Of a stretch of DNA of 25,697 nt, positions 6,814 through 25,697 are shown in pieces (position 1 is the first letter of the stretch; every line of letters begins with the position of its first letter). The notes beneath the pieces are model-generated. The model made no database searches, was not told where the DNA came from, and worked only from the letters and a program-made list of their open reading frames with translations. Position numbers and translations under genes: made by a program. The stretch comes from Gammaproteobacteria bacterium. GTDB lineage: Bacteria > Pseudomonadota > Gammaproteobacteria > Methylococcales > Methylococcaceae. The DNA is taken from NCBI GenBank assembly GCA_009922685.1, contig RFVA01000033.1:1-25697 (forward strand). Direction: 5' to 3'.

Positions 6814-6826
6814 CTGAATGGATAGC

Positions 6827-12531: not shown

Positions 12532-13332
12532 GTGATGTGGCTAAAAATAGGCTGTGAAATGACCTTCGATGTGGAGGTGCCGACCCCTTTCATTTTTATG
12601 CTGCGGCCGCGTAATGGCTCCCAACAGTGGGTTGCAAGGGAATCCTATACTCTCAATCCCCATGTCCCCGTTTATGAATATACGGATGTTGCTGGCAACC
12701 TTTGCCAGCGCTTGGTGGCCCTACCTGGCGCATTTTCATTAAAAGTCAGTGCTGACATCCTCACCAGCGAAACGATTGACTTTGCCCCTGGGGCCCCTTT
12801 TGAGGCTGTGCCCTATCTGCCGGACGGCGTTTTGACCTACCTCCTGCCTTCACGCTACTGCGAGTCGGATCGCTTCATTGATTTAAGCCAAGAGATCGTC
12901 CTCGGCATCAACCCAGGCTATGACCAAGTAGCCAGATTAACGCAGTGGCTTCGAGAAACGATTCGATTTAACCCCAACTCCCCTCACTTTCAGATGTCGG
13001 CCGTCGAAGTCTTTCAGGCTGGCGAGGGCGTGTGCCGGGAGATTGCGCATCTTGGGATTGCTCTTTGCCGTAGCCTATGTATTCCAGCTCGCATGGTCGT
13101 TGGCTATCTTCATGGCCTTGAGCCCATGGATTTTCACGCTTGGTTTGAAGCTTATGTTGATGGTCGTTGGTATACCTTCGATCCGACCCAACCATCGCCC
13201 AGGGGAGGCCGTGTTGTCGTCGCTTATGGTCACGATGCAGCCGACGTGGCCATCTTTAATCAGTTTGGCCCGCCCCTTTATCCCCGGCAAATGACCGTGT
13301 GGGTCGAACCCTTAGCGAAACCACCAGAATGA
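12532..13332 (+). CDS. transglutaminase-like cysteine protease family protein
   Basis: Core GEGVCREIAHLGIALCRSLCIPARMVVGY...H...D (Cys-His-Asp arrangement). GAGGAG lies 9 nt upstream of the GTG at 12532. Confidence 0.8.
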   Translation: MMWLKIGCEMTFDVEVPTPFIFMLRPRNGSQQWVARESYTLNPHVPVYEYTDVAGNLCQRLVALPGAFSLKVSADILTSETIDFAPGAPFEAVPYLPDGVLTYLLPSRYCESDRFIDLSQEIVLGINPGYDQVARLTQWLRETIRFNPNSPHFQMSAVEVFQAGEGVCREIAHLGIALCRSLCIPARMVVGYLHGLEPMDFHAWFEAYVDGRWYTFDPTQPSPRGGRVVVAYGHDAADVAIFNQFGPPLYPRQMTVWVEPLAKPPE

Positions 13333-13535
13333 CTGAGGGCTTGCAAAAACCGGCGGTGTGGGGGCGACTTTTGCACAGTATCTTTTAAGTGACTGATTTT
13401 TGGTAAAGACTCAACCATAGATCAATGACTTACATATATATCTATATAAATCATCCACTTACAAAACACATCAAATACTGGTCATTCCAACAGAGGTCCC
13501 AGCACACCCCGCTTCCCACAGGACTGCCCACAGAC

Positions 13536-13558
13536 TTATGCACAGAAATTGTGGATAA
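13536..13558. promoter_or_regulatory. two convergent DnaA boxes
   Basis: TTATGCACA (13536-13544) fits TTATNCACA. TGTGGATAA (13550-13558) is the reverse complement of the perfect TTATCCACA. A weaker TTTTGCACA lies at 13369-13377, and an AT tract (ACATATATATCTATATAAAT) lies around 13430-13450. Confidence 0.45.
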
Positions 13559-13686
13559 ATCTAAAACCCCCAATGAGTCCTTACCCTTCGATGAATTCCC
13601 GAGCTTTTTCCTTTGTTGAATCCCCTGGTCAAAGGCGTAGCATCAAACCAAGGCTCCTCGGCCGCTCCAGGGATTGAGAAATGGGT

Positions 13687-13887
13687 TTAAAGGCTTGAGG
13701 CTACTGGGGCAGCGAAATAGGTAAGAAGGTGCCAAGAAAATTGATCAGAGTTTCCAGAATAATCTTGAACATGCCCTGCTCGAGCCGGGACAGATAATGC
13801 CAATCTTTTCTCAGCATTAACAGAAAAAGCGGCCGTAATAAGGCCTAGAGACAATACCGAAGCTCCAAATATACTCAAAGACTTCAT
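13687..13887 (-). CDS. small secreted hypothetical protein (66 aa)
   Basis: AGGAGG lies 5 nt upstream of the ATG at 13887. Signal peptide MKSLSIFGASVLSLGLITAAFSVNA. No known motif. Confidence 0.45.
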   Translation of the reverse strand: MKSLSIFGASVLSLGLITAAFSVNAEKRLALSVPARAGHVQDYSGNSDQFSWHLLTYFAAPVASSL

Positions 13888-14023
13888 AAAACCTCCTGAC
13901 AATGTCACCGTTTATTAAGATTTTAGGGAAGCGCGATTAATGCGGTTATGAATCGGGTTTTAGTAGGATGGCCTGATATTGTCATAAAAATCGACAATAG
14001 GCCAAAAGTCAAGACCTCGATGT

Positions 14024-14054
14024 CGAAAAAAAGGCCGCTCTATCTTACGGCCTT
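14024..14054 (-). terminator. rho-independent terminator
   Basis: On the minus strand, AAGGCCG-taagatagag-CGGCCTT is followed by TTTTTTTC. It lies about 110 nt downstream of the 14167 stop. Confidence 0.6.
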
Positions 14055-14166
14055 GTCATGCAATGTCCTATCGAGCCGATTGGCATCAAGATCCAAATCA
14101 CTAGGTCCTTGACGATGGATGTGGACGAGAGAATGGCATTAGGCAACTTCAGCGCCATTGAGCGGC

Positions 14167-14636
14167 TTAGCTAGATCGTCTGACCTTCAATCTGTGCATC
14201 TTCCATGCACCAGAATTACCATATCCAGCACCGGTGACCGAACTATCTGTCGGAGTTATTATTCCGCCCGTAGGACTTTCGCCAAAAGCGCATGAGCATG
14301 CAGCTAAAGGAACTCCATTTTGTGACTTCCCAGTCTTCGTACACACCATCGACCAACATTGACTAATCGCCTGTGACGATTGTCCTGAAAAGGTGCCCGA
14401 CGTGAGCGTAGTAGGTTGGGGAGCGCATTCTTGTGCTATCGGTGCAGCACTTTCCCAATTGAGTGCCTCCTGAGGATAGGGACTGTTCAGCCCGTAGAGG
14501 CTATAGATATGGCCTTTGGGTGCCCGGCAACTGCTCCCCATTGTGTTTGAATTTAGGGCCGCAATTGAGGGGCCTTTCAGGATGGGACACATCACGATTG
14601 TTTCGGGGAAAAGCACCTAGTTTTATCTATGGTCAT
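14167..14636 (-). pseudogene. degraded Cys-rich protein gene (distant paralogue of 15312..16049?)
   Basis: A strong start (AAGAGGAGAGAAGTC-ATG at 14636) opens a 14-codon frame that stops. The 149-codon ORF continues in another frame. It shares the pattern QCW..VC....CSC with the 245-aa protein and has no signal peptide. Confidence 0.3.
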
Positions 14637-15311
14637 GACTTCTCTCCTCTTAAAAAATAATCTAATTTAGTAACTATTCTCATTTTGTAACATACATCCT
14701 TTTCATAAAGGCAAAAAGACGCCTATTGCCGATAAGACAACAACGACGGGCATTAAATTGTCTCTTGGGTTCAAGCTCATGTTTCTTCTCTTTTGGTAGG
14801 CTTTGAAATTCTAGCTAAGCACTCATTCATCCCTTTACCGGTTAATCCTGTTTTACGGCAAACATGCTGAGAACGCAAAGAACATTTTCTCGTGAGCTTT
14901 AACTCGGAGTGGAAAGCCCCTGCAAGAGGGCCAATCATTGAAGCGGACCTTTGAAAGACCGTACGCAACCGGATGCACCCGTGCTAACAAGCAGGCCGCA
15001 AACTATGAGACGCACTTTTTGAAAAAAACACCGGATCTCTGTGGCCTTTGGCCAGTGCAGTACTCGCTAAAAAGTGGCCGTCTTAATAGTAAGTTCTATG
15101 TGGATGGCTCGGCTGTCAAAATTCCTGACCGCATGATCAAGGGCTTAGTGCGTGACACCTCCTATCTCTGCTTGAAACTTCGCTGATGGTGTCGGGCGGC
15201 TCTAAGACTTGAGCCACATAGTCTGACAGCGGAGTTCTCATCGACCGCAGAAACTTATCTGTTAGGATGAATCACTAACTCCCGATCCGCTCGATCTCAA
15301 TCGCTGTAAAA

Positions 15312-16049
15312 ATGCACACACTAAAAGTAAGGCAAGTTCTCGAATTGATTTTGCTCTTCATTTTTTCGCTCGCAGCTCATGCTGTCGTTAAGTGCCCAAC
15401 AGCGAGCACCACAAATAACGGTTTCGCACTTTGTGCCACAGCGCAGTGCTGGACACTCGACGGCGTCAGCTATTGCAAGTGCAACCTGATGAATGAAGAA
15501 AGCATTTCAGCCCCTTTCAACTACACTGAAGGTGGGACGATGAAGGACGTGTGCGACTTGCTTGTTCAGGGTGTAACCAATGGATTCACTATCAGCACTT
15601 ATGCAACCCCTGTGACGGTATTGAAGAGCTATGATCCAGCGACCGGGGGTCAGGGTCCAGCGCAAGCTTTGTACACATGTAATGAGCCGGGTTATTCACT
15701 CAAGCCGGCTTATTCCGCGCAGTGTGACGGCGGCGTTTGCTTCACGAGCACTACAAACACTGACTTTCCAGGATTGGGGCACATTGGTAGCAGTGAAATT
15801 GTTTGCTCCTGCCCGCCCACACCCAATAAAAGAGCATTTCAGATCTCTGGGCCTTGGAGCTGTGCTCCGGGCGAAGCCAATCGAGGAAACAAGTGCTGCG
15901 ACAAGAAGTTCTACACACAGTTTTGTGGTGTGCGTTCTATCAAAAAGACAGGGACTGTTATGGCGGTGGGCTCCACTGCCGGAGTTCCTGTGATTCTTTC
16001 AACGTTGCTCGATGGTCAGCCTCCATTGCTGAACAGTTGCAAATTTTGA
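15312..16049 (+). CDS. secreted cysteine-rich hypothetical protein (18 Cys in the mature part)
   Basis: Signal peptide MHTLKVRQVLELILLFIFSLAAHA. Internally repeated motif AQC(W/D)..(D)G(V)..C.C. No family recognised. Confidence 0.6.
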   Translation: MHTLKVRQVLELILLFIFSLAAHAVVKCPTASTTNNGFALCATAQCWTLDGVSYCKCNLMNEESISAPFNYTEGGTMKDVCDLLVQGVTNGFTISTYATPVTVLKSYDPATGGQGPAQALYTCNEPGYSLKPAYSAQCDGGVCFTSTTNTDFPGLGHIGSSEIVCSCPPTPNKRAFQISGPWSCAPGEANRGNKCCDKKFYTQFCGVRSIKKTGTVMAVGSTAGVPVILSTLLDGQPPLLNSCKF

Positions 16050-16070
16050 TTTGTTAGCCCAAAGCCTGTT

Positions 16071-16319
16071 TTGGCTGAGCACGCGGGTAAACGAGCGGCG
16101 GTCATTCAATCGTTGATCGAAACCGTCAAGCTGAACGGCGTCGATCCGGCGGCCTGGATGAGGGAGACTCTTCAGGAACTTCCCCTATGGCCGAACAAGA
16201 GAATCGATGAACTTCTGCCCATAGACGGATGGAGCCGGCAGAGGCTTAAGCTTCCCCCATGCTCCCCCAAAAAACTCAAGACAATAAAAAAGGCTAGGCA
16301 TTTCTACCTAACCCTTTGA
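16071..16319 (+). mobile_element. IS66-family transposase C-terminal remnant (truncated)
   Basis: GKRAAVIQSLIETVKLNGVDPAAWMRETLQELPLWPNKRIDELLPIDGW matches the conserved IS66 TnpC C-terminus (..SLIxTxKLNGxDPxAYLxxVLxxLP...RIDELLPWNW). Similarity covers about 16074-16232. There is no N-terminal part and no inverted repeats. Confidence 0.7.
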
Positions 16320-16323
16320 TTTA

Positions 16324-16368
16324 TGGTGGGCCGTGAAAGGCTCGAACTTTCGACCTATGGATTAAGAG
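16324..16368 (-). other. tRNA-Lys(CUU) 3' half only (anticodon loop to CCA); att-type scar
   Basis: The minus strand reads CTCTTAATCCATAGGTCGAAAGTTCGAGCCTTTCACGGCCCACCA. This gives anticodon loop CU-CUU-AA, T-arm GAAAG/TTCGAGC/CTTTC, acceptor 3' strand, discriminator A and CCA. It is close to E. coli tRNA-Lys. The 5' half (GGGCCGT..., ATGGA) is absent. Confidence 0.7.
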
Positions 16369-16557
16369 AAAACTGGCGGATCACTTTCTCTAATATTTTC
16401 AATATATTACATCATATTTTTTTCGGTGTGTAGCAAAGTGTGTAAGCCTCCAACCTACTCAAATCACACGAAAAAGTAAGCGCAGCGTGAAACACCTGAA
16501 ATTAACGCCCCAACAGCACCCCCACTGCCCTGCCGTTGCTTGAAGGCGCGGGACGCT

Positions 16558-16613
16558 ATTACTGAATTTAAGTAACTTGGCGCCGACATCACAACGTCAA
16601 AACTTTTACGTTG
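16558..16613. repeat. hairpin-repeat pair Y1 (16558-16576) + X1 (16592-16613)
   Basis: Y1 is ATTACTgaatttaAGTAAC. X1 is CAACGTCAAAACTTTTACGTTG. Both recur at 17921-17972. Confidence 0.6.
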
Positions 16614-16673
16614 AGAGCAGCATCTGGCTTACTGAAAGCAAGGGTTTAGATGGCGCACTTTTCAATAGGCTAC

Positions 16674-16895
16674 CTACTGTTCGCCATCTTCACTCGAGGC
16701 TAATGACCGCAAGTCGAGCCCTTCAACTGCAGCATCGACCACATAACCAGACCTGAGTCTTTCATAAATTGCCCAGCAACCCTCACAACAGAAACGATCA
16801 GCCGTGTTAACAGTCTTTATGGTTAATCCGCAGAGTTTACAGCGCATCTCAAACTCATCTCCCATGCCATCCATACACAAAATGCAGCGCACCAA
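16674..16895 (-). CDS. small cysteine-rich zinc-ribbon protein resembling the N-terminal metal-binding domain of CcoI/CopA-type ATPases (start uncertain)
   Basis: RCKLCGLTIKTVNTADRFCCEGCWAIYERL fits CxxC-x12-FCCxGCxxxY. Confidence 0.45.
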   Translation of the reverse strand: MVRCILCMDGMGDEFEMRCKLCGLTIKTVNTADRFCCEGCWAIYERLRSGYVVDAAVEGLDLRSLASSEDGEQ

Positions 16896-17184
16896 TCAGA
16901 CTAATTGACTGTCCCCGAAGCCTACAAATAGCAATACGTTCGGACCAACACCGTGCCACAGCAAGTCTTGGGCCACAGCATAAGCATCTGTTTACGCCTG
17001 GCTTTTGCCTATGCTGTTGGCTAGAGGATCTTAGGAATAAGTGATTTCACTGATTAAGGTGCGCCATATGCCGCACATGATCAGGCCAAAGTGTTACAGT
17101 TGTGCGAAGAGGAGGGCTGTACCCCTCACTTTGCCATCATCTCCACTAACAACTAGTGCGCGACCCGAAAACGGGAGTTCTTGA

Positions 17185-17859
17185 TTGTCTGCCGATTTCA
17201 TCTTTGTCGTAGGTGCTTTTTCATCCGGAACCACTGCTGTTACCGGGATGCTAATGAATCTTGGCGCAATTGCGTTCGGCCCGTTCGGCATAACAAACGA
17301 CCCACGCACTCAAACCAGCCTTGAAAGCGTTGCCCTACAGCGCCTGTGTGACGATCTAGTCAGTGAAGATGTGCTTCAGATTTGGGAAGGAAAGCGACTT
17401 CAAATCGTACCCAAACTAGTAGGATTTAAAAGAGAGATTGATGCCATCATCTCGCAAAAAAGCGGCATTCAGGGCAAGCCTATCGTTTTCAAACGCGCAA
17501 CAACCGCCCTTTTCCTAAAAGAAATTGATCTGATCTTCAAACCCAAGTTCATCTTCGTTTACAGAGACCTTGCTGAAATTGAGCGAACCAAGGTAAGAAG
17601 GGGTTGGGGCGAATGCCATGGTCAATCTGGGGCAAAAGTCATCAACTCTCATATGCGCTCATTTGCTTCCTCCTCTTATGATCCATTCACAGTTCGATTT
17701 GAGGACATTCGAAGAAATCCGAGAGCAATGGCGGAGGCAATGTCTAACGAGCTGGGCCTCAACCAGACTGAAGAAATGCTACAAGCCGCTTCAAACTGGA
17801 TCACTGATCACAACAAGCGCTTCGGCATCGATCAAATACTAGCTCAGCACGATAGCTAG
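17185..17859 (+). CDS. sulfotransferase-like protein (TTG start)
   Basis: A PAPS-loop-like FIFVVGAFSSGTTAV lies near the N-terminus, followed by a FIFVYRDLAEI motif. GGGAG lies 7 nt upstream of the TTG. Confidence 0.45.
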   Translation: MSADFIFVVGAFSSGTTAVTGMLMNLGAIAFGPFGITNDPRTQTSLESVALQRLCDDLVSEDVLQIWEGKRLQIVPKLVGFKREIDAIISQKSGIQGKPIVFKRATTALFLKEIDLIFKPKFIFVYRDLAEIERTKVRRGWGECHGQSGAKVINSHMRSFASSSYDPFTVRFEDIRRNPRAMAEAMSNELGLNQTEEMLQAASNWITDHNKRFGIDQILAQHDS

Positions 17860-17920
17860 TAACTCCGAAGCAGACAGACCGAAAGGCGGGATGATCATCA
17901 ATGAGCCGCTTGGGAACGCT

Positions 17921-17972
17921 AACGTCAAAACTTTTTACGTTGCCCCACATGCCATTACTCAATTTAAGTAAT
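17921..17972. repeat. hairpin-repeat pair X2 (17921-17941) + Y2 (17954-17972)
   Basis: X2 is AACGTCAAAACTTTTTACGTT, which equals X1 apart from one extra T. Y2 is ATTACTcaatttaAGTAAT, matching Y1 at 17/19. The order is mirrored relative to Y1-X1. Confidence 0.6.
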
Positions 17973-18004
17973 AGACCCAGCATTCACTGTAGCTATGCCC
18001 CTCA

Positions 18005-18334: not shown

Positions 18335-18432
18335 AAATCAAACATCTCCTGCTCATCCCTGATATTTACGCGCCCTGCCTGATTTTCGATGTTAAACCCT
18401 GAAAACCTGAAGTTAAGGTTTTTGATTCTGGC

Positions 18433-18594
18433 TTACTGCACTGGATATGGCCCGAACACGATTCTGCCTCCGGGCCCCGCCATCGACTGCGCCAGTGCTG
18501 TTGCCTGTATCGCATTGTCGGCATAAACGAAGGTGTGGACCATGCTCCTGCTGCCGTTGTTGATAATTTCAAGTCTCACGGTATATCTGTTCAT
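18433..18594 (-). CDS. 53-aa hypothetical protein (below the ORF-track cutoff)
   Basis: MNRYTVRLEIINNGSRSMVHTFVYADNAIQATALAQSMAGPGGRIVFGPYPVQ. Its ATG overlaps the TGA of the upstream gene (TGATG), which suggests translational coupling. Confidence 0.4.
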   Translation of the reverse strand: MNRYTVRLEIINNGSRSMVHTFVYADNAIQATALAQSMAGPGGRIVFGPYPVQ

Positions 18595-19040
18595 CATGCC
18601 CCCTTCTTGAAGCCAGATCGAAGTGCACCCGATGCCTTTTCGATTTCAGCATCCAGTTCACCTGCCAGTACCGCATTCTTTACCGTGGTCAATGCTTCGA
18701 TCAGGGCATTCAGGTCGGCCACTTCAACAGCGTTCTTGCCCTTGCCGAGCTCAATCACCTTGCTGCCATAGCGCACATGAAAGCAGTAGCCCCCAGTAGC
18801 ACTGATCCAGAACCAAGGCCTTACTCGCTTAAATGTTTCGACTTGTACCTTCTGTCCGGTTGCTGGGTTTGTGGTTGACTTGATGATACGAGGAGTAAAG
18901 TTGGCGCCAGACTGTTTTGCCCTTGCCATGTCGATCTGCTCGTCCAGTTTTGACGCCAGTTTATTGCGCTGTCGCTGGACTCCGTTAACACGTGGCGCTT
19001 GGCTTGCGGTGACCAGTTTCAGTGTGTTCAAAATGCTCAT
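18594..19040 (-). CDS. conserved-looking hypothetical protein (148 aa)
   Basis: I prefer the start MSILNTLKLV at 19040, with GAGGA about 7 nt upstream. The longer ORF-track N-terminus is Cys/Ser-rich junk. The sequence resembles island or plasmid-borne proteins I cannot name with confidence. Confidence 0.6.
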   Translation of the reverse strand: MSILNTLKLVTASQAPRVNGVQRQRNKLASKLDEQIDMARAKQSGANFTPRIIKSTTNPATGQKVQVETFKRVRPWFWISATGGYCFHVRYGSKVIELGKGKNAVEVADLNALIEALTTVKNAVLAGELDAEIEKASGALRSGFKKGA

Positions 19041-20247
19041 TGCTCGTCCTCGGTCTTGTTGAATGAGCCACGAGCGTATTGTCGGATTCGGGATCTGGAC
19101 AACCGAAATCTGCCAGCACCCTGCCCCTAATCCGTCAACAGAACCACATTTGCCAGCACTGATCTGCGGTTCGGCTAAATAAAAATGAAGGCACTTAAAG
19201 GCAACACAACTCCCCACACAGCAAGACGAAAAGCATGATGCGGGCATGTTGGACAGGCACTACAGACTGTTGATGTCCCGGGCTTGCGGGTTTAATCAAG
19301 CGGGTAACAATAAAAGCACTCCACGCAGCAGACGGAGGAGGACACCCAGCGACAACAGCGCACCTGCAGCTTCTACCCCTTCACCGGGATGCTGATCCGA
19401 TATGCCTATATACAACGGATTTAGCTGCAGTAGAAAAACATTAAGGCTAAATGATCGGGACATTGCCATGACCGGCGCAATGCGTTCCCGAGCTTTCCTG
19501 CATGCGACAGCTTGTATGCAAGAAAGTACCGCTGGGTCGGGGTGCAAGCTCCGAGGATGACAGCAACGCGAGGTACCGCCCAACCGCCTCTGGATCGTTG
19601 TAAAGCTGAATGCGAAGGGGACTCACAGAAAGTCTTTTTTTACTTCCTCCGATTGCGGGGAAGTAATGTCTCAAGGATCTACAGAAAGATAAACAAATCC
19701 ATTCAGCATCATTCACCTTCAGACAGCGAATGAATTTTATGAAAAGAACATCATGCTTGAGCTTTGTGAGTGATGAGAGCGACAGCGAGCAGCATCGAAC
19801 AAAGTGAAAAGCTAGCAGAGTTGAGCGCAGCGAGACTCCGCTCATATATGCCCTGTCAGCCTTGAGACAAATGAAATGCTCTGGCACTAGGTTCAGGGTG
19901 TCGAAGGCGGACCGGTCCTTCCTATTCATATCGACTTGGTTTCATGATCGAACGCTGAGCGATTCCTCTTCTTCTCGCATCAACTACTCCTTTATCCCGA
20001 AGGAGATCACGAAGCAAGGGGTACCGAAACAAAATCACCAGCCCGACTTGATAAGTAGCTGACTGCAATTTTATACGCGGGCTATTTTTTCCCAGCAGGA
20101 CCCACTTCGGGCGGCGCAGCACAAGACGCTACAGCAGACGATCTCGATTTCGGGCTGGTGCATGTAGCGAGTCGAGGGAATCCAGACGCTGCTGACGCTG
20201 ACTGAACTTGTTGCTTGAGCAAACTCTTGAACACCCAGATTTCGATG

Positions 20248-20414: not shown

Positions 20415-20987
20415 ATGAAGAAAGCACGGATTTTGAGCAAGCAGGAGTTGAGGCGCGTACTGGACCACATTGCCACCCGCCCCCATTCTGCAAGAAACAG
20501 GGCTTTGATTTGCACGATGCGTTATGCAGGACTCAGGGCATGTGAAGCCGCTTCTCTCAAAATGAAAGATGTGCTCGATGCCCAGGGCGAAATCAAAATC
20601 GAAATCTACCTAACAGCCCAACAAACCAAGGGCAAATCAGGCAGATCCGTGCTCATCAATTCCAAATTATCTAAAGAGCTATCGACTTACTTGCAGGGCA
20701 TGACGATCATCAGTCCCGAGCAAAGCCTGTGGCCCACCCAGAAAAATTCGATTCGCGGTTTCACTGCTAACGGCATTTCTGGATTTTTCTGTCGATTATT
20801 TAAGGAGGTGGGTCTCGAGGGCGTTTCAAGTCACGGTTTCAGGCGCGAATTCATCACCACGCTCGCCAACCACTCCATCGGCATCCACACCATCATGTCA
20901 CTTTCAGGGCATCGTCGGCTTTCATCGGTTCAGGAGTACCTAAGCGTGACTGACGAGCAGAAGCGACGGGCCGTGGAGATGCTTTAA
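20415..20987 (+). CDS. small tyrosine recombinase, catalytic domain only (FimB/FimE-like size and layout)
   Basis: 190 aa. R in AGLRACE, HxxR in SSHGFRREF, GH in LSGHRRL, Y in VQEYL. The N-terminus ILSKQELRRVLDHIATRPHSARNRALICTMRYAGLRACE parallels FimB FLTHSEIESLLKAA..HAARNYCLTLLCFIHGFRASE. AGGAGG lies 8 nt upstream. Confidence 0.85.
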   Translation: MKKARILSKQELRRVLDHIATRPHSARNRALICTMRYAGLRACEAASLKMKDVLDAQGEIKIEIYLTAQQTKGKSGRSVLINSKLSKELSTYLQGMTIISPEQSLWPTQKNSIRGFTANGISGFFCRLFKEVGLEGVSSHGFRREFITTLANHSIGIHTIMSLSGHRRLSSVQEYLSVTDEQKRRAVEML

Positions 20988-21008
20988 AAACCTGAACTTC
21001 AGGAAAGC
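20986..21008 (+). repeat. site A: AAAAACCT-GAACTTC-AGGAAAGC (perfect left arm only)
   Basis: Lies between the convergent stops of the recombinase gene (20987) and the 151-aa gene (21015). Confidence 0.7.
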
Positions 21009-21014
21009 TCAAAT

Positions 21015-21470
21015 TCAAATCAGTTCACACTTCCATTTCGTTTGATCGTTGCCTAACCCATCCCAGTTGGCAGATGCGACCCAGTAATCCGTGGGCAGCA
21101 CATCAATGTAAAACTGAAACCAATCACTATCGCCCCCAGCCAACGAAATGAAATGCGGAAGGCTGATGGAAAAAACCAAACCCTCATTATCACGCTGAAA
21201 GTGGTAGAGGTGCAGAGTGAAGCCCTTAGACTTCAGGTGCTCATTGATCTCTTCATGGAACTTTTGTACATCCGCGTTTTGAAACCAGTACGGGTCCGTA
21301 GGTAAATCTTCTGGACCACTAAAAAACGGAAATTGGGCTGCTGGGCCTTCTTGGGCTTTTTTCCAAAAAATGAAGTCTCTGACTGCCGCACGGATTTCAG
21401 CAATCAGCGTGTCGAACACTTGCCGCTCAATGAACATCGTGGACGCATCATCGTTCAAGTAGCTTGTCAT
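21015..21470 (-). CDS. hypothetical protein (151 aa)
   Basis: Clean ORF with balanced composition. No motif recognised. It is flanked by sites A and B. Confidence 0.6.
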   Translation of the reverse strand: MTSYLNDDASTMFIERQVFDTLIAEIRAAVRDFIFWKKAQEGPAAQFPFFSGPEDLPTDPYWFQNADVQKFHEEINEHLKSKGFTLHLYHFQRDNEGLVFSISLPHFISLAGGDSDWFQFYIDVLPTDYWVASANWDGLGNDQTKWKCELI

Positions 21471-21491
21471 GGCCCGTTATAACTTGAACTT

Positions 21492-21514
21492 GAATTACTG
21501 AACTTCAGGTTTTT
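21492..21514 (+). repeat. site B: GAATTACT-GAACTTC-AGGTTTTT (perfect right arm only)
   Basis: Lies between the stop of the TGT-like gene (21524) and the start of the 151-aa gene (21470). Confidence 0.7.
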
Positions 21515-21523
21515 GATTTTGGA

Positions 21524-22909
21524 TTACGGATTCGGCTCATCGGCATCATCGAATTCCAAATCCATATCCACTTCCGGGTCATTGATAGCAGCCGGTGCAA
21601 CTTGATCGAAAAGTGACTGGTATGCGTCAATCCTGTCCATCGGATTTTGAGCAGCAAACACATCCGCTATGGCATCCAATGTTGCCTCGAATTGTTCAGG
21701 GATATTTCGAATTGGTCCGAAGGCATCCTCATTTGCCCGCCTCATAGCATCAAGATAAACCCATGCATTGTGGTTCATGAGCATCATGTTGCTGAGTGAA
21801 TCTAGCCTGTGCTTTTCAAACTCGTCATCACGACAAACGAGATGATGCATTTCGAGCATTTTGCCCAGTGGCGATGACGGCTCTGGGAAGAGCTGGGGAT
21901 TATTTTGATCTGCATAATTCGAAGTCTGCTTAAGCGTCACCAACTTGATCGCCCAATCTTTTCTGTCATAACCCAGAGCCGGGGACACAGCATATTGATC
22001 GTGTCGTCCCCCACATTTAAACGGGGTTGCGCTATCGTAGGTGATTTGAATTCCCGGGTTTACGCTTCGTAGTTCACGCTGAATTGCTGTCAGGAAAATC
22101 GCCCACTTTGTTTGCGACATGCCCAGCACATGCAAAACATCCTGCCCCAGATCAAATGCATTGTCGTCACGCATCATCACCAAAGTCCGCAGCATGTCAG
22201 CTAAACCACCGAGCCAGCCTGCAGTTCCTGCCAGACTCCAACCGCCATCACGAAACCAGTTCACAGCCTGCCACCAACGCTGCGTATTGCTCCAGTTGCT
22301 ACCTTGAACAACATTGAGCCAGCGAGTGTGCCCCTTCTTTATTTTTTGGATGAGCTGTAAGTTGCGGACTGTCATGTCCGTAAGCTGTTGCTCAGTGCAG
22401 TTGTGGAACGGTGATTTCGCCCCCCTGTTCGTCATCGCCCACAACGGCATATCGAGAGTCATCGCGTAATCTGCGTAACGATCCAGCCACTCGATAATCC
22501 AACGCTTTGCATCGTAGCTACCCTCCCAAGCACTTACAGCAGCGATCCCATGCATGCCCTCGAAGAACTCATAGCTCAAACCGCTCAGCGTACCTTTGCC
22601 GATTTGAAATCCGCCCGAATCACCAAGGAAAAATGATGTGTTAGGCGCCCGGCGGAACAGTGGCCCTCGCGTATCTTTGCCTACCGTGTAGCAACCGATT
22701 GAATGCAGGTAGTAGGGATAGTTCCACAATGCACTTTGCCCGGACCAGAATGCCAAATCCGCTATCGTGAAACCCTGCGGAACAGCACGCCCAACATCAA
22801 GCTGTCTATCAGTAAACGGCGCATAGGTTTCGTTGATTGCCGGGAGATAGATCGAGTAGTCGCCCGGGAAAGTGACATTGAAATCGTTGGTGTAGTTGAG
22901 TTGGATCAT
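21524..22909 (-). CDS. tRNA-guanine transglycosylase superfamily protein, DpdA-like (461 aa from MIQLNY)
   Basis: Ordered TGT motifs, numbered from M at 22909: FLGDSGGFQ (D97), MTLDMP (D153), VVQG (Q202), HVLGMS (~260-265) and TYDSATP (D292). Compare Z. mobilis TGT D102, D156, Q203, LMGVG ~260 and D280. AAGGGG lies 5 nt upstream of the ATG at 22909, which is 5 nt after the upstream stop. Confidence 0.8.
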   Translation of the reverse strand: MIQLNYTNDFNVTFPGDYSIYLPAINETYAPFTDRQLDVGRAVPQGFTIADLAFWSGQSALWNYPYYLHSIGCYTVGKDTRGPLFRRAPNTSFFLGDSGGFQIGKGTLSGLSYEFFEGMHGIAAVSAWEGSYDAKRWIIEWLDRYADYAMTLDMPLWAMTNRGAKSPFHNCTEQQLTDMTVRNLQLIQKIKKGHTRWLNVVQGSNWSNTQRWWQAVNWFRDGGWSLAGTAGWLGGLADMLRTLVMMRDDNAFDLGQDVLHVLGMSQTKWAIFLTAIQRELRSVNPGIQITYDSATPFKCGGRHDQYAVSPALGYDRKDWAIKLVTLKQTSNYADQNNPQLFPEPSSPLGKMLEMHHLVCRDDEFEKHRLDSLSNMMLMNHNAWVYLDAMRRANEDAFGPIRNIPEQFEATLDAIADVFAAQNPMDRIDAYQSLFDQVAPAAINDPEVDMDLEFDDADEPNP

Positions 22910-22914
22910 GCCCC

Positions 22915-24656
22915 TTACCTCAGCTCTTCGATTCTTTTCTCCAACGTCATCCAATCAAGGTCGTTAAGTTCAAAAGCTGGATCATCGTCGGGGTCTTGCG
23001 AAGGAAGCGGATCGATCGTTGTCATGGGGCTGTAGGGCTGGAAGTTCTCAAAGTTACGCTTGCCTTTCTCGTTACACGCAGGAATCCAACAATCGTAATT
23101 CGCTGCAGCAGTTTCAAAACGTAGATACACAGCATGGTTAGATACGGCGATAAACATGTCTCCCTGCAAGTTCAGTTCAGCAATCTGTGCGAGGACAAAG
23201 ATGAAGTCCCGAGGCAGCACATAAATCTCGTGGATGCTGTCGCTGCTATTTCCAGCGTAGGCACCTGTGAGCAGATTGAACTCCTTGTAGCTTTCAAACT
23301 GCGAACCCGAGAACTCCCAGACAACAGTCAACACATTTCCTGAAAACCTTAACTTCAGGATTTTGTGTTCTGGACGCTTATGCTTTGGACCGAAACTTTT
23401 GATCCACGGCTGCAACATACGACCGTTTATTTCGCGTAAACCGCCAAGGTCCACGGTGCCCTGCCATGCTGAGCTAAATGAATTAGGCTTAAAGTCCACT
23501 TGCCACCGAGGGGCACCAAATGACTCGTAGAACGGAATCAAACTGAGTGGTGGATGATTGTAGTTGCTGATGTGAGCTTCAAGATTTGCATCCCAAGATT
23601 CCGTGTACAGATCCAGGGGCAGCTTATTCTTCAGCCTTACGGTGTGAGCTGCGATAAAGCCTTCAGGAACATCTCGGAAAACAGACTTATCGGGTGTCTT
23701 ATAGAGATTGAATCGCCGCGCATTAAGCAGCTTGGTTTCGATCGATTGCCGGGTGCTTGTCTGCAGAAAAACGTCACCATCGTCTCGATTGATGATTTGG
23801 CTTTTGGGTTTAGCATGGATAACAACCGATGACTCCACGCCTGTATGACTCAATAAAAAACTCTGCTGCTCCGGACGATAAATGAGTCGACGATGTGAGG
23901 GTTCCTTAGCGTTTTTCTTGTCCGAAAACTCATCGCTAATCCTGCTCAGCTCCTTAAAGCGGGCTTCATCTTTTGCAATGACATAAGGGATATTGAGGAT
24001 GTGGAGAGGCTCAAGAACAGCACGGACAGTCAATGGCAAAGCATCCAGATTTGTCATGTAGCTTTCCACACTCAAACTACTGATGAGCTTTGGATCTGCG
24101 CTGCTGCCGAGACAAACAACGCCCGATTCATCACGTTTAACAAGGACTACGCTGAAACCGCTTCTATCCAGAGTTGCGGGAAGTGAGCTTGGAATTGACG
24201 GAAAAGCAGCATTGCTGAAAAAGCTTTCGTACCCCTCCTTGAAGAGCGGCCTGAACTCGATGTCGTCAAGCTCAAAAAGCCCAACCTCAACATCATCGTC
24301 ACTATCCAAGTCAGGCAAGCTCCACTTCTCCCTGACACCAGTTTTGCCGAAGTGCTGGACCAAATATCCAGATCGCTGTTCGTGATTTCGTTGCGACTTA
24401 CGAGCTTTAGCACAGGGCGGAAATTGATACTGCGGAGGCTGTAGAAGATGATGTGATTTTGCTCGAAAACCGTGGGCAAATAGCTGGGATCGGACGACAC
24501 CTCCCGCCACCACATGTACACCCGCGCCCACAACTTTGACTCAGCCTCACGAGTCAGTCGTTTGAACGCATTTATCGTCTCGTAGCTGGACTGCAACTTT
24601 TCCAGCGTTTCCGTTTTGGGGGCTTCGGTTTCGGTTTGAGCTTCTGGATTAGACAT
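22915..24656 (-). pseudogene. large hypothetical protein (~580 aa if repaired), reading frame broken near 24340-24370; first gene of the TGT-like module
   Basis: The frame from the ATG at 24656 looks protein-like up to ...SRNEITNSDLDIW and then turns to Ser/Arg junk. The other frame is junk until ...YLVQHFGKTGVREKW and then stays protein-like to the stop at 22915. The C-terminal tail is acidic. Confidence 0.55.
23342..23364 (+). repeat. site C: GAAAACCT-TAACTTC-AGGATTTT (both arms 7/8), inside the large CDS
   Basis: Encodes KILKLRFSG in frame on the minus strand. Confidence 0.55.
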
Positions 24657-24679
24657 AAAAAGCTGAAGTTCAGGTTTTA
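24657..24679 (-). repeat. site D: AAAAAGCT-GAAGTTC-AGGTTTTA (the only copy with an inverted spacer)
   Basis: Starts 1 nt upstream of the ATG at 24656. Positions 24657-24678 are the exact reverse complement of 24828-24849. Confidence 0.75.
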
Positions 24680-24826: not shown

Positions 24827-24849
24827 AAAAACCTGAACTTCAGCTTTTT
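24827..24849 (+). repeat. site E: AAAAACCT-GAACTTC-AGCTTTTT
   Basis: Perfect 22-bp inverted partner of site D, with 148 bp between them. Confidence 0.75.
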
Positions 24850-24929: not shown

Positions 24930-25697
24930 TCAATAGCTGCGTTCGCGATGAAAATGCCATCCAACAACCGTCATCAGCATCAATGCCAGCAGCAACTGGG
25001 TCCATTCAGAAAGTGATGGGACTGCGACTGCGGCTGGGGCCAGAGAAATAGCCACCGTAACCTGCGAGGATGTTGCAGAAGCATAGCTAGAATCCGCCGC
25101 CTTGGTCGCCGTCACGACACAATTCCCTGCTCCCATCCCAGTCAAGGTTGCACCATTTAAAGTACACGGACCGCTGACAAGGTTGTAGGTCACAGCACCC
25201 GATCCACTTCCTCCGGTCGTACTGAGGGTGGACGTGCCGTTGACGTTGATACTGGTAGAACTAGGGACTACGACAAGGGTGGCTTGGGTGGCTAATACCA
25301 CCGTCGCAACTTGCACTGCGCTGCCGCTGTTTCCGCCATTGGTGGTGGTTACTACCGCCGTGAGGCTGCCAGTTGTATTCGGCGGAGACATCAAATTAAC
25401 AGTCAGCTGAATAGAAGTAGCGGCAGAAACACTCCCGACAGCACCGTTATTGAACACAACCGTGTTGTTGCCCACAGTCGTATCAAAATTGGTGCCGGTG
25501 ATTGTCATCGAGGGGGCATTGATGGCAAGGTTTGCGGTTGACTGTGTGACTGTTGGCGGAGCAGCGGGCGTGACCGAATTACTGGCGGAAGAAGAGCCAC
25601 CTGTGCCCGATGTGTTCGTGGCCGTAACCGTGAAGGTATAGGCGGTGCCATTGGTTAAACCTGTCACGGTGATGGGGCTTGAAGCGCCGGTGCCGGT
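24930..25697 (-). CDS. surface protein, C-terminal part (5' end outside the window), with FN3 and Ig-like repeats and an IPTL-CTERM sorting signal
   Basis: The C-terminus VPSLSEWTQLLLALMLMTVVGWHFHRERSY fits IPTLSEW plus a TM helix plus a basic tail. The FN3 end reads LTNGTAYTFTVTATNTSG. The frame stays open to the window edge, so the M in the ORF track is an internal GTG. Confidence 0.75.
   Translation of the reverse strand, partial: TGTGASSPITVTGLTNGTAYTFTVTATNTSGTGGSSSASNSVTPAAPPTVTQSTANLAINAPSMTITGTNFDTTVGNNTVVFNNGAVGSVSAATSIQLTVNLMSPPNTTGSLTAVVTTTNGGNSGSAVQVATVVLATQATLVVVPSSTSINVNGTSTLSTTGGSGSGAVTYNLVSGPCTLNGATLTGMGAGNCVVTATKAADSSYASATSSQVTVAISLAPAAVAVPSLSEWTQLLLALMLMTVVGWHFHRERSY

What the first reader, a model, noticed from the sequence alone, without database searches (positions are those of the whole stretch)
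21015..24656. Orphan TGT/DpdA-like transglycosylase operon with two partners of unknown fold
**Seen in the sequence.**
- The 461-aa protein carries the TGT active-site motifs in the right order and at nearly the same positions as Z. mobilis TGT: DSGGFQ, xLDxP, VQG, xLGxx and YDSxxP.
- I see no CxCxxC...H zinc motif.
- It has an extra ~170-aa C-terminal region ending in an acidic tail (DPEVDMDLEFDDADEPNP).
- It is tightly coupled to an upstream ~580-aa protein that also has an acidic tail (DPDDDPAFELNDLDW...). The two are separated by 5 nt.
- It is followed by a 151-aa protein. I can assign a motif to neither partner.

**Established knowledge.** TGT-superfamily DpdA proteins in genomic islands and phages exchange guanine in DNA for 7-deazaguanine bases. 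They normally occur with DpdB/DpdC or with folE/queD/queE/queC.

**Inference.** None of those partner genes is visible in this window. This may therefore be a new minimal base-exchange module. It could act on DNA or RNA, could serve anti-restriction or defence, and may borrow host preQ0.
Basis: partly seen in the sequence, partly recalled or inferred. Interest (0 to 1): 0.85.

Follow-up and report, generated by a model that had tools for sequence, protein, structure and literature searches.

The report
DpdA-like enzyme with clamp-fold partner
This locus encodes a very divergent relative of the enzymes that swap guanine for 7-deazaguanine in nucleic acids, paired with a protein shaped like a DNA sliding clamp, and the pair is the constant core of a previously undescribed family of small mobile genomic islands; in this particular window the clamp-like gene is broken.

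Summary
The 461-aa protein (21524-22909, minus strand) is a real but very divergent TGT/DpdA-superfamily TIM barrel. No Pfam, NCBIfam, PADLOC or PHROGs model detects it. A pLDDT-93 model has Z. mobilis TGT as best PDB match, and profile comparison links it to a phage TGT-domain protein (98%) and E. coli Tgt (81%). The three catalytic Asp are the most conserved residues of the family, which has at least 929 clusters at 50% identity.

The "~580-aa" upstream gene is not intact here: a 91-nt frameshifting deletion disrupts it, while a near-identical sister contig has 610 aa. Its C-terminal part has a sliding-clamp (PCNA/9-1-1/beta) fold. The 151-aa gene is a lineage-restricted ORFan, not a conserved partner.

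The module is not orphan. In 48 loci the clamp-like gene always abuts the TGT-like gene, usually with a 190-aa tyrosine recombinase, a large integrase, DUF6641 and conserved palindromes. No que or dpdB genes lie within 10 kb.

Distant phage relatives sit near FolE and QueE, including in PA5oct, whose DNA has a modified G.

Best reading (0.5): a clamp-tethered DNA guanine-exchange enzyme carried by an integrative island and using host preQ0. It is a new variant of a known kind.

The parts
21524..22909 (-). Gene B: 461-aa divergent TGT/DpdA-superfamily TIM barrel. Putative catalytic residues are D97 (acid/base), D153 (base recognition), Q202 and D292 (nucleophile). It lacks the zinc Cys cluster and has a helical C-terminal region.
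   Evidence: conservation. (AF2 model, pLDDT 93.4). (best PDB matches are Z. mobilis TGT 1efz/1pud, E 1.5e-7). (the only named BFVD hits are TGT/DpdA). (hhalign 98%, 81% and 59%).
22915..24656 (-). Gene A, disrupted here. Intact relatives are 600-610 aa with an N-terminal helical domain, a disordered linker and a C-terminal clamp-fold region of about 290-370 aa, followed by a conserved acidic SEDPDD motif and a terminal helix. The window lacks 91 nt at 24349|24350, which shifts the frame.
   Evidence: two ORFs in different frames. (deletion relative to L008 and L079). (AF2 model of intact homologue P0122, pLDDT 73.9 overall and 85-95 over most of the clamp-fold region). (332 Foldseek hits at E<=1e-3; all top 50 are PCNA, 9-1-1 or beta clamps, TMt about 0.6). 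(consensus).
21015..21470 (-). Gene C: 151-aa lineage-restricted ORFan lying between two palindromes. It is a variable cassette, not a conserved partner.
   Evidence: only two related clusters, 98% and 62% identity. (present only in the closest relatives). (replaced by a 332-aa ORF in L007, with homology breaking at the palindromes). (no family hits).
20415..20987 (+). Short tyrosine recombinase, 190 aa, catalytic domain only, with the full catalytic set R41 K72 H140 R143 H166 Y175. It is a conserved neighbour of A-B.
   Evidence: Phage_integrase, E 2.4e-26, covering model positions 3-171 of 172.. (recombinases present in 41 of 48 island loci, with a short one usually within about 2.5 kb). (invariant catalytic residues in 43 short homologues).
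18594..19247 (-). DUF6641 protein. The homologues are about 148 aa, so the true start is probably internal. It is a recurrent island backbone gene.
   Evidence: PF20346, E 2.6e-10. (present in 35 of 48 island loci). (148-aa call in the near-identical L078).
24828..24849 (.). Palindromic element AAAACCTGAACTTCAGCTTTTT. It is a perfect 22-nt inverted repeat of the element at 24657-24678, with 149 bp between them.
24657..24678 (.). Palindromic element ending 1 nt before the ATG of gene A. A related palindrome occupies the same position (-7 to -34) in distant islands.
21493..21514 (.). Palindromic element 10-30 nt after the stop codon of gene B. The position is conserved (+10 to +24) in distant islands. 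It forms the left boundary of the gene C cassette.
20983..21005 (.). Palindromic element between the convergent gene C and the short recombinase. It forms the right boundary of the gene C cassette.
18402..18423 (.). Palindromic element (one mismatch in the core) downstream of the DUF6641 gene.

Best explanation
The locus is part of a small integrative genomic island. The family's backbone is a large tyrosine integrase, a 190-aa catalytic-domain-only tyrosine recombinase, DUF6641, conserved palindromic sites, and a tightly coupled gene pair, A and B.

B is a highly divergent member of the TGT/DpdA transglycosylase superfamily with an intact active site. A carries a sliding-clamp fold.

The most likely mechanism is DNA base exchange.
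- A tethers B to double-stranded DNA. This is inferred by analogy with DpdB, the ParB-like ATPase that canonical DpdA needs and that forms a tunnel around DNA.
- B flips out a guanine. [quoted passage not shown]
- A 7-deazaguanine base, most simply preQ0 from the host queuosine pathway, is then inserted.

The modification would shield the island and host DNA from restriction, or mark them as self.

What is shown:
- the fold of B and its conserved catalytic residues;
- the clamp fold of A;
- the invariant adjacency of A and B;
- the island context;
- the FolE/QueE linkage in the phage clade.

What is inferred:
- that the substrate is DNA;
- the identity of the inserted base;
- the tethering role of A;
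- the biological role.

In this window gene A carries a 91-nt frameshifting deletion, so this copy is probably inactive.
For: **B belongs to the TGT superfamily**
- The best PDB matches are Z. mobilis TGT and murine QTRT1. Generic TIM barrels come only after them.
- The only named BFVD matches are phage TGT/DpdA proteins.
- hhalign gives 98.1% (E 7.8e-14, 264 columns) to a phage TGT-domain protein, 80.9% to E. coli Tgt and 59% to a DpdA1-type set. All motif blocks align in register.
- D97, D153 and D292 correspond to Asp95, Asp130 and Asp256 of Salmonella DpdA. Asp95Ala or Asp256Ala abolishes exchange there (PMC10164549). They are invariant or nearly so across the family.

**Link to DNA and deazaguanine**
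- A has a DNA sliding-clamp fold. It abuts B on the same strand in 48 of 48 island loci.
- Phage-clade homologues of B lie near PolB, FolE and QueE in L059, L060, L061 and L063. In PA5oct the homologue lies near QueE.
- PA5oct DNA resists restriction enzymes in a pattern pointing to a modified G, and no DpdA has been named for it (PMC12191111).
- Canonical bacterial Dpd also relies on the host Q pathway for preQ0.
Against: - No biochemical data exist for any member of this family.
- No Pfam, NCBIfam or PADLOC model recognises B.
- B has Gln where DpdA has the base-reading His181.
- No ATPase partner is present, whereas DpdA needs DpdB and ATP.
- No que genes lie near any island copy.
- The strict linkage to two recombinases, DUF6641 and the palindromes looks more like backbone than cargo.
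- Ring formation by A, and contact between A and B, are untested.
- A is disrupted in this window and in several near-identical contigs.
Confidence: 0.5

Rival explanations
1. A and B are backbone (life-cycle) genes of the island rather than a modification cargo. In this reading the TGT-like enzyme processes DNA at the conserved palindromes, for example by excising or exchanging a base or forming a covalent intermediate. The clamp-fold protein recruits or retains replication or recombination machinery. Together they serve excision, replication or cassette exchange alongside the short recombinase.
For: - A-B is always found with tyrosine recombinases and DUF6641. The smallest islands (about 8-10 kb, for example L005 and L031) contain little else.
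- The conserved core palindrome CTKAAnTTMAG sits just before the ATG of A and just after the stop of B in distant lineages: 46 copies against 4.65 expected.
- A cassette between two palindromes has been swapped.
- An HUH/Y1-like small protein occurs in about 20 islands.
- Some chromosomes carry multiple copies.
- No que genes are nearby.
Against: - No precedent is known to me for a TGT-fold enzyme acting in mobility.
- The base-recognition residues (D153, Q202) are conserved as in guanine-exchanging enzymes.
- The phage-clade homologues lack recombinases and sit in deazaguanine-synthesis and replication contexts.
- Elements with a broken A persist in populations.
Confidence: 0.2
2. A-B is an anti-phage or anti-plasmid defence that works in the opposite direction. 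The clamp-tethered TGT-like enzyme scans incoming DNA and removes 7-deazaguanine or other modified guanines. It would act by exchange back to G or by hydrolysis to abasic sites, in analogy with defence glycosylases.
For: - The islands carry variable defence-type cargo: a C5-methylase plus NaeI, SNF2 plus DUF1156, and an AAA_15/21 ATPase.
- Glycosylase-based defence against deazaguanine-modified phages exists (bioRxiv 10.1101/2025.10.29.685425).
- TGT chemistry passes through a covalent intermediate that could be hydrolysed.
Against: - There is no direct evidence.
- PADLOC gives no hit.
- The known defence glycosylases have HhH or UDG folds, not the TGT fold.
- The close link to recombinases is not explained.
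Confidence: 0.1
3. B is an RNA (tRNA) guanine transglycosylase like bacterial Tgt or archaeal ArcTGT, and A is unrelated to its chemistry.
For: - The best matches among solved structures are tRNA-guanine transglycosylases.
- B has Gln202, as bacterial Tgt does, where DpdA has His.
Against: - The zinc subdomain Cys ligands used in tRNA TGTs are lost.
- The invariant partner has a DNA-clamp fold.
- The gene is carried on mobile islands and in phages, next to DNA polymerase and FolE/QueE.
- The closest sequence-detectable relative is a phage TGT-domain protein.
Confidence: 0.05

Closest known systems
Bacterial DpdA/DpdB of the Dpd system (Salmonella Montevideo; PMC10164549)
   Same: - B has a TGT-fold enzyme with the same three Asp and the Phe four residues after the first Asp (DSGxF).
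- Both work as a two-protein module in which the partner is thought to encircle or hold DNA.
- Both are carried on a genomic island.
- Both have no que genes of their own, so preQ0 would come from the host.
   Different: - No family-level sequence membership: PADLOC and Pfam give nothing.
- The partner has a PCNA-like clamp fold and no NTPase motif, rather than a ParB-like ATPase.
- There is no DpdC-K.
- B has Gln in place of His181.
- B has a longer N-terminal extension and a helical C-terminal region.
Phage TGT-domain and DpdA proteins (Vibrio phage GR7B_00174; DpdA1 of 9g; DpdA2 of nt-1; PMC10516641)
   Same: - hhalign gives 98% to GR7B_00174 over 264 columns, including DSGGFQI, LDxPT, HxLG and the (S/Y)D(S/A)S motif.
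- Foldseek hits nt-1 R9TGF0 and actinophage DpdAs.
   Different: - The phage proteins keep CxCxxC (GR7B) and His at the Q202 position.
- They sit with que genes or ParB-like genes.
- They have no A-type partner and no recombinase.
- Identity is below 25%.
Uncharacterised jumbo-phage homologues (PA5oct EST35_0316, Phosso, Vibrio phage 2.275.O) and phage-like metagenomic contigs L059-L064
   Same: - They belong to the same superfamily by direct sequence search: 25-29% identity, tblastn E 1e-22 to 1e-35.
- They share the same invariant residues.
   Different: - They are linked to PolB, FolE and QueE.
- They lack A, the short recombinase and DUF6641.
- They are longer, at 485-540 aa.
tRNA-guanine transglycosylase (Z. 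mobilis and E. coli Tgt, PF01702)
   Same: - It is the best match among solved structures.
- hhalign gives 81% with the catalytic motifs in register, including Gln in the VQG motif.
   Different: - It falls below Pfam detection.
- There are no zinc ligands.
- The genomic context and the partner differ.
Sliding clamps (PCNA, 9-1-1, beta clamp)
   Same: The C-terminal 290-370 residues of A match clamp structures at probability 1.0 and TMt about 0.6.
   Different: - There is no sequence-family membership.
- A has an extra 130-aa helical N-terminal domain and an acidic C-terminal motif.
- No clamp loader or polymerase is nearby.
- The oligomeric state is unknown.
Short tyrosine recombinases with palindromic sites (FimB/FimE-type invertases; Xer/pdif modules; integron cassettes)
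   Same: - The recombinase is 190 aa with the full catalytic set.
- Palindromic sites bracket genes, and one bracketed gene has been exchanged.
   Different: - No recombination has been shown here.
- The sites share no sequence with fimS, dif or attC.
- The HMM scores lie far below every named subfamily cut-off.

Membership tests
TGT superfamily (tRNA-guanine transglycosylase-like TIM barrel) | (beta/alpha)8 barrel most similar to TGT structures | tested here: met
   The AF2 model has pLDDT 93.4. The top Foldseek PDB matches are 1efz/1pud (E 1.5e-7, probability 1.0) and 7ovo, with generic TIM barrels only from E 5e-4. The named BFVD hits are all TGT/DpdA.
TGT superfamily (tRNA-guanine transglycosylase-like TIM barrel) | Three active-site Asp (acid/base, base recognition, nucleophile) in register | tested here: met
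   D97 and D292 are invariant and D153 is at least 90% conserved in 66 diverse members. They align to the corresponding Asp of E. coli Tgt, of phage GR7B_00174 and of the DpdA1 set.
TGT superfamily (tRNA-guanine transglycosylase-like TIM barrel) | Scores above the Pfam PF01702 gathering threshold | tested here: not met
   There is no hit at E<=1 for the window protein. Only 3 of 66 family members give weak hits, the best at E 0.0045.
TGT superfamily (tRNA-guanine transglycosylase-like TIM barrel) | Zinc site CxCxxC...H | tested here: not met
   C171 is the only invariant Cys. CNCPVC of the phage protein aligns to a Cys-less segment. Only the His region (NHN, H380) is retained.
DpdA (DNA guanine transglycosylase; bDpdA, DpdA1-4) | Recognised by DpdA models or profiles | tested here: inconclusive
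   PADLOC gives no hit. hhalign to a 7-member DpdA1-type set gives 59%, E 9e-5. hhalign to a phage TGT-domain protein gives 98%. There is no DUF6610 (DpdA4) hit and no BLAST link to phages carrying DpdA3.
DpdA (DNA guanine transglycosylase; bDpdA, DpdA1-4) | His (His181 in Salmonella DpdA) reading the Watson-Crick edge | tested here: not met
   The aligned position is Gln202 (VVQG), as in bacterial Tgt. The feature is described in PMC10164549.
DpdA (DNA guanine transglycosylase; bDpdA, DpdA1-4) | Genomic link to DpdB (ParB-like), DpdC or preQ0-synthesis genes | tested here: not met
   phmmer with FolE, QueD, Gat-QueC, QueE and ParB-like queries finds nothing in the island loci. It hits only the phage-like contigs L059, L060, L061 and L063. 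The neighbour clustering agrees.
DpdA (DNA guanine transglycosylase; bDpdA, DpdA1-4) | Exchanges guanine in DNA for a 7-deazaguanine | not testable with these tools
   This needs LC-MS/MS of DNA or a [14C]guanine exchange assay.
Sliding clamp (PCNA / beta clamp / 9-1-1) | Clamp-domain fold | tested here: met
   There are 332 Foldseek hits at E<=1e-3. The top 50 are all clamps, with TMt 0.38-0.63 over 281-340 columns. The model pLDDT is 85-95 over most of the region.
Sliding clamp (PCNA / beta clamp / 9-1-1) | Closed ring oligomer around DNA, loaded by a clamp loader | not testable with these tools
   No multimer prediction was available. No loader or polymerase gene appears in the island loci.
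Sliding clamp (PCNA / beta clamp / 9-1-1) | Sequence-family membership (Pfam PCNA or DNA_pol3_beta) | tested here: not met
   There are no Pfam hits for the window fragments or for the intact L079 protein. A profile search against PDB sequences finds nothing.
Tyrosine recombinase (the 190-aa neighbour) | Phage_integrase catalytic domain with R-K-H-R-H-Y | tested here: met
   PF00589 at E 2.4e-26. R41, K72, H140, R143, H166 and Y175 are invariant in 43 homologues.
Tyrosine recombinase (the 190-aa neighbour) | N-terminal core-binding domain of full-length integrases or Xer proteins | tested here: not met
   The protein is 190 aa and the catalytic-domain model already covers residues 7-181. Scores are far below the XerC/D, integron and GmtY cut-offs.

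The most novel reading that the evidence does not exclude
The clamp-fold protein and the TGT-like enzyme may be the core machinery of a previously unrecognised type of integrative, cassette-bearing island. In that case base exchange or excision by a transglycosylase at the conserved palindromic boundary sites would be mechanistically coupled to site-specific recombination by the 190-aa recombinase, or to replication of the excised element. That would be a use of TGT chemistry in DNA mobility rather than in modification.
Probability: 0.1. Interest if true: 0.9.

Novelty: new variant of a known kind. Interest (0 to 1): 0.7.

Why it matters
- **A large hidden branch of a known superfamily.** If the best reading holds, this is a branch of at least 929 clusters at 50% identity, with no Pfam model and no papers found in my searches, of the enzymes that write 7-deazaguanines into DNA. 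It would extend that chemistry from Dpd islands and phages to many freshwater and marine Proteobacteria.
- **A new kind of helper.** A PCNA-like clamp fold would stand in for the ParB-like ATPase DpdB. That bears on the open question of why DNA transglycosylation needs a DNA-encircling partner.
- **A candidate for PA5oct.** The family also offers a candidate for the unidentified inserting enzyme of PA5oct-type jumbo phages, whose DNA carries a modified G.
- **A new island family.** The island itself, with two tyrosine recombinases, DUF6641, palindromic cassette boundaries and an insertion next to secA in several genomes, appears undescribed.

Tried and rejected
- **Family libraries and PDB sequence searches.** Pfam, NCBIfam, PADLOC and PHROGs scans of A, B and C gave nothing useful. 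phmmer and profile searches of B and A against PDB sequences gave no hits.
- **Narrow profile comparisons.** hhalign with the narrow alignment A1 gave only the DSGGFQ motif against E. coli Tgt (8%) and nothing against the DpdA set. The broader alignment A3 was needed.
- **RNA elements.** I looked for a preQ1 riboswitch or any Rfam element and found none.
- **Palindromes as terminators.** I rejected this reading. The RNA hairpins are weak, at -2 to -9.5 kcal/mol. One palindrome abuts the ATG of A. The core sequence is conserved across classes while the arms change.
- **A-type partner outside the islands.** I looked next to the phage and plasmid homologues of B and found none by HMM. The conserved 243-aa ORF upstream of the phage-clade B could not be shown to be a clamp.
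- **HUH/Y1 reading of the 180-195-aa island protein.** This rests on motifs only. Pfam gives no support.
- **GMT (gamma-mobile-trio) membership.** Rejected: GmtY scores 27 bits against a cut-off of 340.
- **DpdA3 or DpdA4 identity.** Not supported.
- **Literature searches.** Searches for DUF6641, DUF6876 and DUF6626, and for DpdA together with 'tyrosine recombinase' or 'sliding clamp', found nothing relevant.

Full report
**1. What is in the sequence**

Three ORFs lie head to tail on the minus strand.
- Gene B runs from 21524 to 22909 and encodes 461 aa from the ATG at 22909. It is identical to the NCBI call P0001, 'hypothetical protein, MAG Gammaproteobacteria bacterium'.
- Gene C runs from 21015 to 21470 and encodes 151 aa.
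- Upstream of B lies gene A. It ends 5 nt before the ATG of B.

The tool lists a 169-aa ORF (24147-24656) and a 538-aa ORF (22915-24531) in a different frame.
- tblastn with the intact 608-aa homologue from L008 shows that both pieces are homologous and that residues 101-131 are missing.
- A DNA alignment with L079 settles it. L079 is near-identical to the window (99.98% from gene A onward, 96.8% upstream of the deletion) and carries a 610-aa A. The window lacks exactly 91 nt between positions 24349 and 24350.
- Three further contigs carrying the identical B (L078, L082, L083) end inside the same 91-nt stretch. The disruption therefore looks like real population-level variation rather than a reading error of mine.

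**2. Gene B is a divergent TGT/DpdA-superfamily enzyme**

Curated libraries see nothing.
- Pfam, NCBIfam, PADLOC and PHROGs give no hit.
- PDB sequence searches with the protein or with family profiles give no hit.

The family is nevertheless large.
- The word-indexed search finds 529 hits.
- The exhaustive search finds 929 representative clusters at 50% identity, 676 of them at E<=1e-10.
- All hits that carry any annotation are labelled 'hypothetical' and have no Pfam domain.

The structure points to TGT.
- An AlphaFold2 model built from 43 homologues is confident (pLDDT 93.4, pTM 0.93) and is an alpha/beta barrel followed by a helical C-terminal region.
- Against the PDB, the best matches are Z. 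mobilis TGT (1efz and 1pud, E 1.5-2.0e-7, probability 1.0) and murine QTRT1 (7ovo). Generic TIM barrels follow only from E 5e-4.
- Against BFVD, the best matches are uncharacterised phage proteins (E 8e-24, TM up to 0.79). Every named match after them is a phage 'tRNA guanine transglycosylase' or 'queuine tRNA-ribosyltransferase'.

Conservation and profile comparisons agree.
- In an alignment of 66 members sharing about 25% identity, the only invariant residues are D97, S98, G100, Q102, H260, L262 and D292. D153, P155, N199, G223, W224 and G263 are at least 90% conserved.
- That profile matches Vibrio phage GR7B_00174, annotated 'TGT domain-containing protein' (PF01702 at 24.1 bits, just under the 26.3 cut-off). 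The match has 98.1% probability and E 7.8e-14 over 264 columns.
- It matches E. coli Tgt at 80.9%, E 1.3e-5.
- It matches a seven-member DpdA1-type set at 59%, E 9.2e-5.
- In all three the blocks DSGGFQ, LDxP, VQG, HxLG and YDSxSP align in register.

D97, D153 and D292 thus correspond to Asp95, Asp130 and Asp256 of Salmonella DpdA. These are the acid/base, the base-recognition residue and the nucleophile. Asp95Ala or Asp256Ala abolishes guanine exchange in that enzyme (PMC10164549).

Two differences from DpdA stand out.
- The position of the base-reading His181 is Gln202, as in bacterial Tgt.
- The zinc Cys ligands are gone. The CNCPVC of the phage protein aligns to a Cys-less segment in B, while B's NHN motif (H380) aligns to its HHN.

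The acidic tail itself occurs only in the closest relatives.

**3. Gene A has a sliding-clamp fold**

- The intact homologue P0122 (608 aa, 71% identical) was modelled from 16 sequences. Overall pLDDT is 73.9. Most of residues about 280-570 score 85-95, with dips near 335-345 and 375-395, and the linker at 133-209 is disordered.
- Foldseek gives 332 PDB hits at E<=1e-3. All of the top 50 are PCNA, 9-1-1 or beta clamps, at probability 1.0 and TMt up to 0.63 over about 290 columns.
- No sequence model sees this.
- The N-terminal helical domain of about 130 aa remains unassigned.

**4. Gene C is not a partner**

It has only two related clusters (98% and 62% identity) among 5.8 billion proteins. 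It occurs only in the window's nearest relatives. In L007, where B is 75% identical, it is replaced by an unrelated 332-aa ORF, while B on one side and the recombinase on the other remain homologous.

**5. The module is not orphan: it is the core of an integrative island**

I fetched 58 genome loci plus metagenome contigs, called ORFs, and searched them with profiles and by clustering. In 48 non-redundant loci with B at 30% identity or more:
- A lies immediately upstream of B on the same strand in 48 of 48.
- Tyrosine recombinases are present in 41. Typically there is a short one of 188-244 aa within about 2.5 kb and a large one of 400-470 aa within 2-7 kb.
- DUF6641 is present in 35.
- Other recurrent small genes are DUF6876, DUF6626 and a 180-195-aa family with HxHxAxG...GWxxYxxKE motifs.
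- The remaining genes vary. They include a C5-methylase plus NaeI, SNF2 plus DUF1156, and an AAA_15/21 ATPase.

Three loci have secA as a flanking gene. In L005 the island sits between secA and argJ, and in L001 its integrase abuts secA. Two Pseudohongiella chromosomes carry two copies each.

The window has two of these backbone genes.
- The short recombinase is at 20415-20987 (Phage_integrase, E 2.4e-26). Its catalytic set R41, K72, H140, R143, H166 and Y175 is complete and is invariant in 43 homologues.
- DUF6641 is at 18594-19247.
- No large integrase is present in the window.

**6. A conserved cis element**

- The 22-nt palindrome AAAACCTGAAsTTCAGGTTTT occurs in five intergenic positions of the window. 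Its core has 6 matches (up to one mismatch) against 0.5 expected.
- Two copies form a perfect inverted repeat bracketing 149 bp, with the inner one ending 1 nt before the ATG of A.
- Across about 1 Mb of loci, the core CTKAAnTTMAG occurs 46 times against 4.65 in shuffles. It recurs 7-34 nt before the ATG of A and 10-24 nt after the stop of B. The outer arms change in a palindromic way between lineages.
- Gene C lies between two copies, and the homology with L007 breaks at them.
- The RNA hairpins are weak.

I read these as protein-binding or recombination sites. What binds them is unknown.

**7. Is it linked to 7-deazaguanine?**

- A phmmer survey with FolE, QueD, Gat-QueC, QueE, ParB-like, DpdA and Tgt queries found nothing in any island locus.
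- The same survey found FolE in the distant, phage-like contigs L059, L060, L061 and L063, and QueE in L059 and L061. In these contigs the B homologue lies downstream of a family-B DNA polymerase.
- Jumbo phages of the PA5oct group encode a B homologue (EST35_0316, 25% identity, E 1e-22). It lies 3 kb from a gene annotated 7-carboxy-7-deazaguanine synthase, with PRTase and glycosyltransferase-like neighbours.
- PA5oct DNA resists several restriction enzymes in a pattern that points to a modified G. That study names QueE and a PTPS but no DpdA (PMC12191111).
- Canonical bacterial Dpd also takes preQ0 from the host queuosine pathway (abstract of PMC10164549). The absence of que genes from the islands is therefore not evidence against base exchange.
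- No preQ1 riboswitch is present.

**8. Most likely mechanism**

*Shown:* B has the fold and the conserved catalytic and base-recognition residues of guanine-exchanging transglycosylases. Its invariant, probably translationally coupled partner has a DNA-clamp fold. Relatives in phages sit in deazaguanine-synthesis and replication contexts.

*Inferred:* A holds B on duplex DNA. This would be the role proposed for the ParB-like ATPase DpdB, which forms a 20-Angstrom tunnel around DNA and is required by DpdA. B would then exchange guanine for a host-made 7-deazaguanine through an Asp292-linked covalent intermediate. I put this at 0.5.

The main rival, at 0.2, is that A-B serves the island's own recombination or replication at the palindromes. 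That would explain the strict linkage to recombinases better. Against it, I know of no precedent, and it does not explain the phage clade.

Defence by removing modified guanines (0.1) and tRNA modification (0.05) are less likely.

In this window the frameshift in A makes the module probably inactive.

**9. Comparison and novelty**

B fails membership of PF01702, of the PADLOC Dpd models, and of DpdA3 and DpdA4. It lacks the zinc site and the DpdA His. It clearly belongs to the superfamily and works, in all likelihood, like a DpdA.

I found no description of a clamp-fold partner, the recombinase link or the palindromes in the searchable literature. I rate the finding a new variant of a known kind, with interest 0.7.

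Noticed in passing
window 18402-18423, 20983-21005, 21493-21514, 24657-24678, 24828-24849; also 23343-23363 inside gene A: A conserved 22-nt palindrome (core CTGAAsTTCAG) brackets the A-B pair, gene C and other small genes. The same core sits before the ATG of A and after the stop of B in islands from other proteobacterial classes, with arms that covary. The copy inside gene A is conserved in the four closest loci.
   Followed up: partly
window 24349|24350; L079 589-679; 5' ends of L078, L082 and L083: Gene A is hit twice in the same 91-nt stretch in near-identical elements. The window has a clean 91-nt deletion. Three other contigs break there after 28-53 nt of unrelated sequence. An intact allele (L079, L081) coexists. 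This could be a hotspot, a phase switch, or selection against A.
   Followed up: partly
L034:15179-15766, L024:4147-4692, L001:12129-12704 and about 17 other island loci; not in the window: A 180-195-aa protein family with conserved HxHxAxG and GWxxYxxKE motifs, reminiscent of HUH/Y1 endonucleases that act on hairpins. It has no Pfam support.
   Followed up: partly
L071 (phage 9g) 2006-3960; L074 (Streptococcus phage MS1) 472-1932: In two unrelated phages the canonical DpdA gene lies directly next to a sliding-clamp gene: the 9g 'replicative clamp' gp02 and MS1 DnaN gp7. This echoes the clamp-fold partner seen here.
   Followed up: no
L011 (PA5oct) 5974-7596: PA5oct EST35_0316 is a member of this family near QueE, a PRTase and a glycosyltransferase-like gene. 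It is a candidate for the enzyme that inserts the modified G reported for PA5oct. I did not scan the whole phage genome for a canonical DpdA.
   Followed up: partly
L059:5310-6047, L060:9234-9965, L061:9136-9867, L063:2591-3319, L064:4501-5244: A conserved ORF of about 243 aa (the size of a PCNA monomer) lies directly upstream of the phage-clade B homologue, downstream of PolB in the one locus scanned with Pfam (L060). I could not show that it is a clamp (profile search of PDB sequences and hhalign not significant).
   Followed up: partly
window about 13300-18000: G+C drops from about 0.54 to about 0.47 near 13.3 kb. An IS66 C-terminal fragment lies at 16071-16319 and a sulfotransferase-like ORF at 17185-17859. 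No large integrase is present, so this copy of the island looks decayed or rearranged.
   Followed up: no
window 24930-25667; L010 100-230: The fn3-like surface protein ends in a PSLSEW...hydrophobic...basic tail (a sorting-signal-like C terminus). A protein with the same tail is the neighbour of gene A in L010, which marks the right-hand junction of the element there.
   Followed up: no
L018 and L021 (OZ253535.1); L022 and L047 (OZ254078.1): Two copies of the island occur per Pseudohongiella chromosome, one pair only 26 kb apart. This suggests recent mobility or tandem insertion.
   Followed up: no
L012 (Azospirillum sp. B510 plasmid pAB510d) 6511-11123: A 26%-identical B homologue again lies next to a 190-aa integrase. 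Its neighbours (253 aa, and 560 aa as annotated) are not detectably related to A, so the link to the recombinase is older than the link to A.
   Followed up: partly
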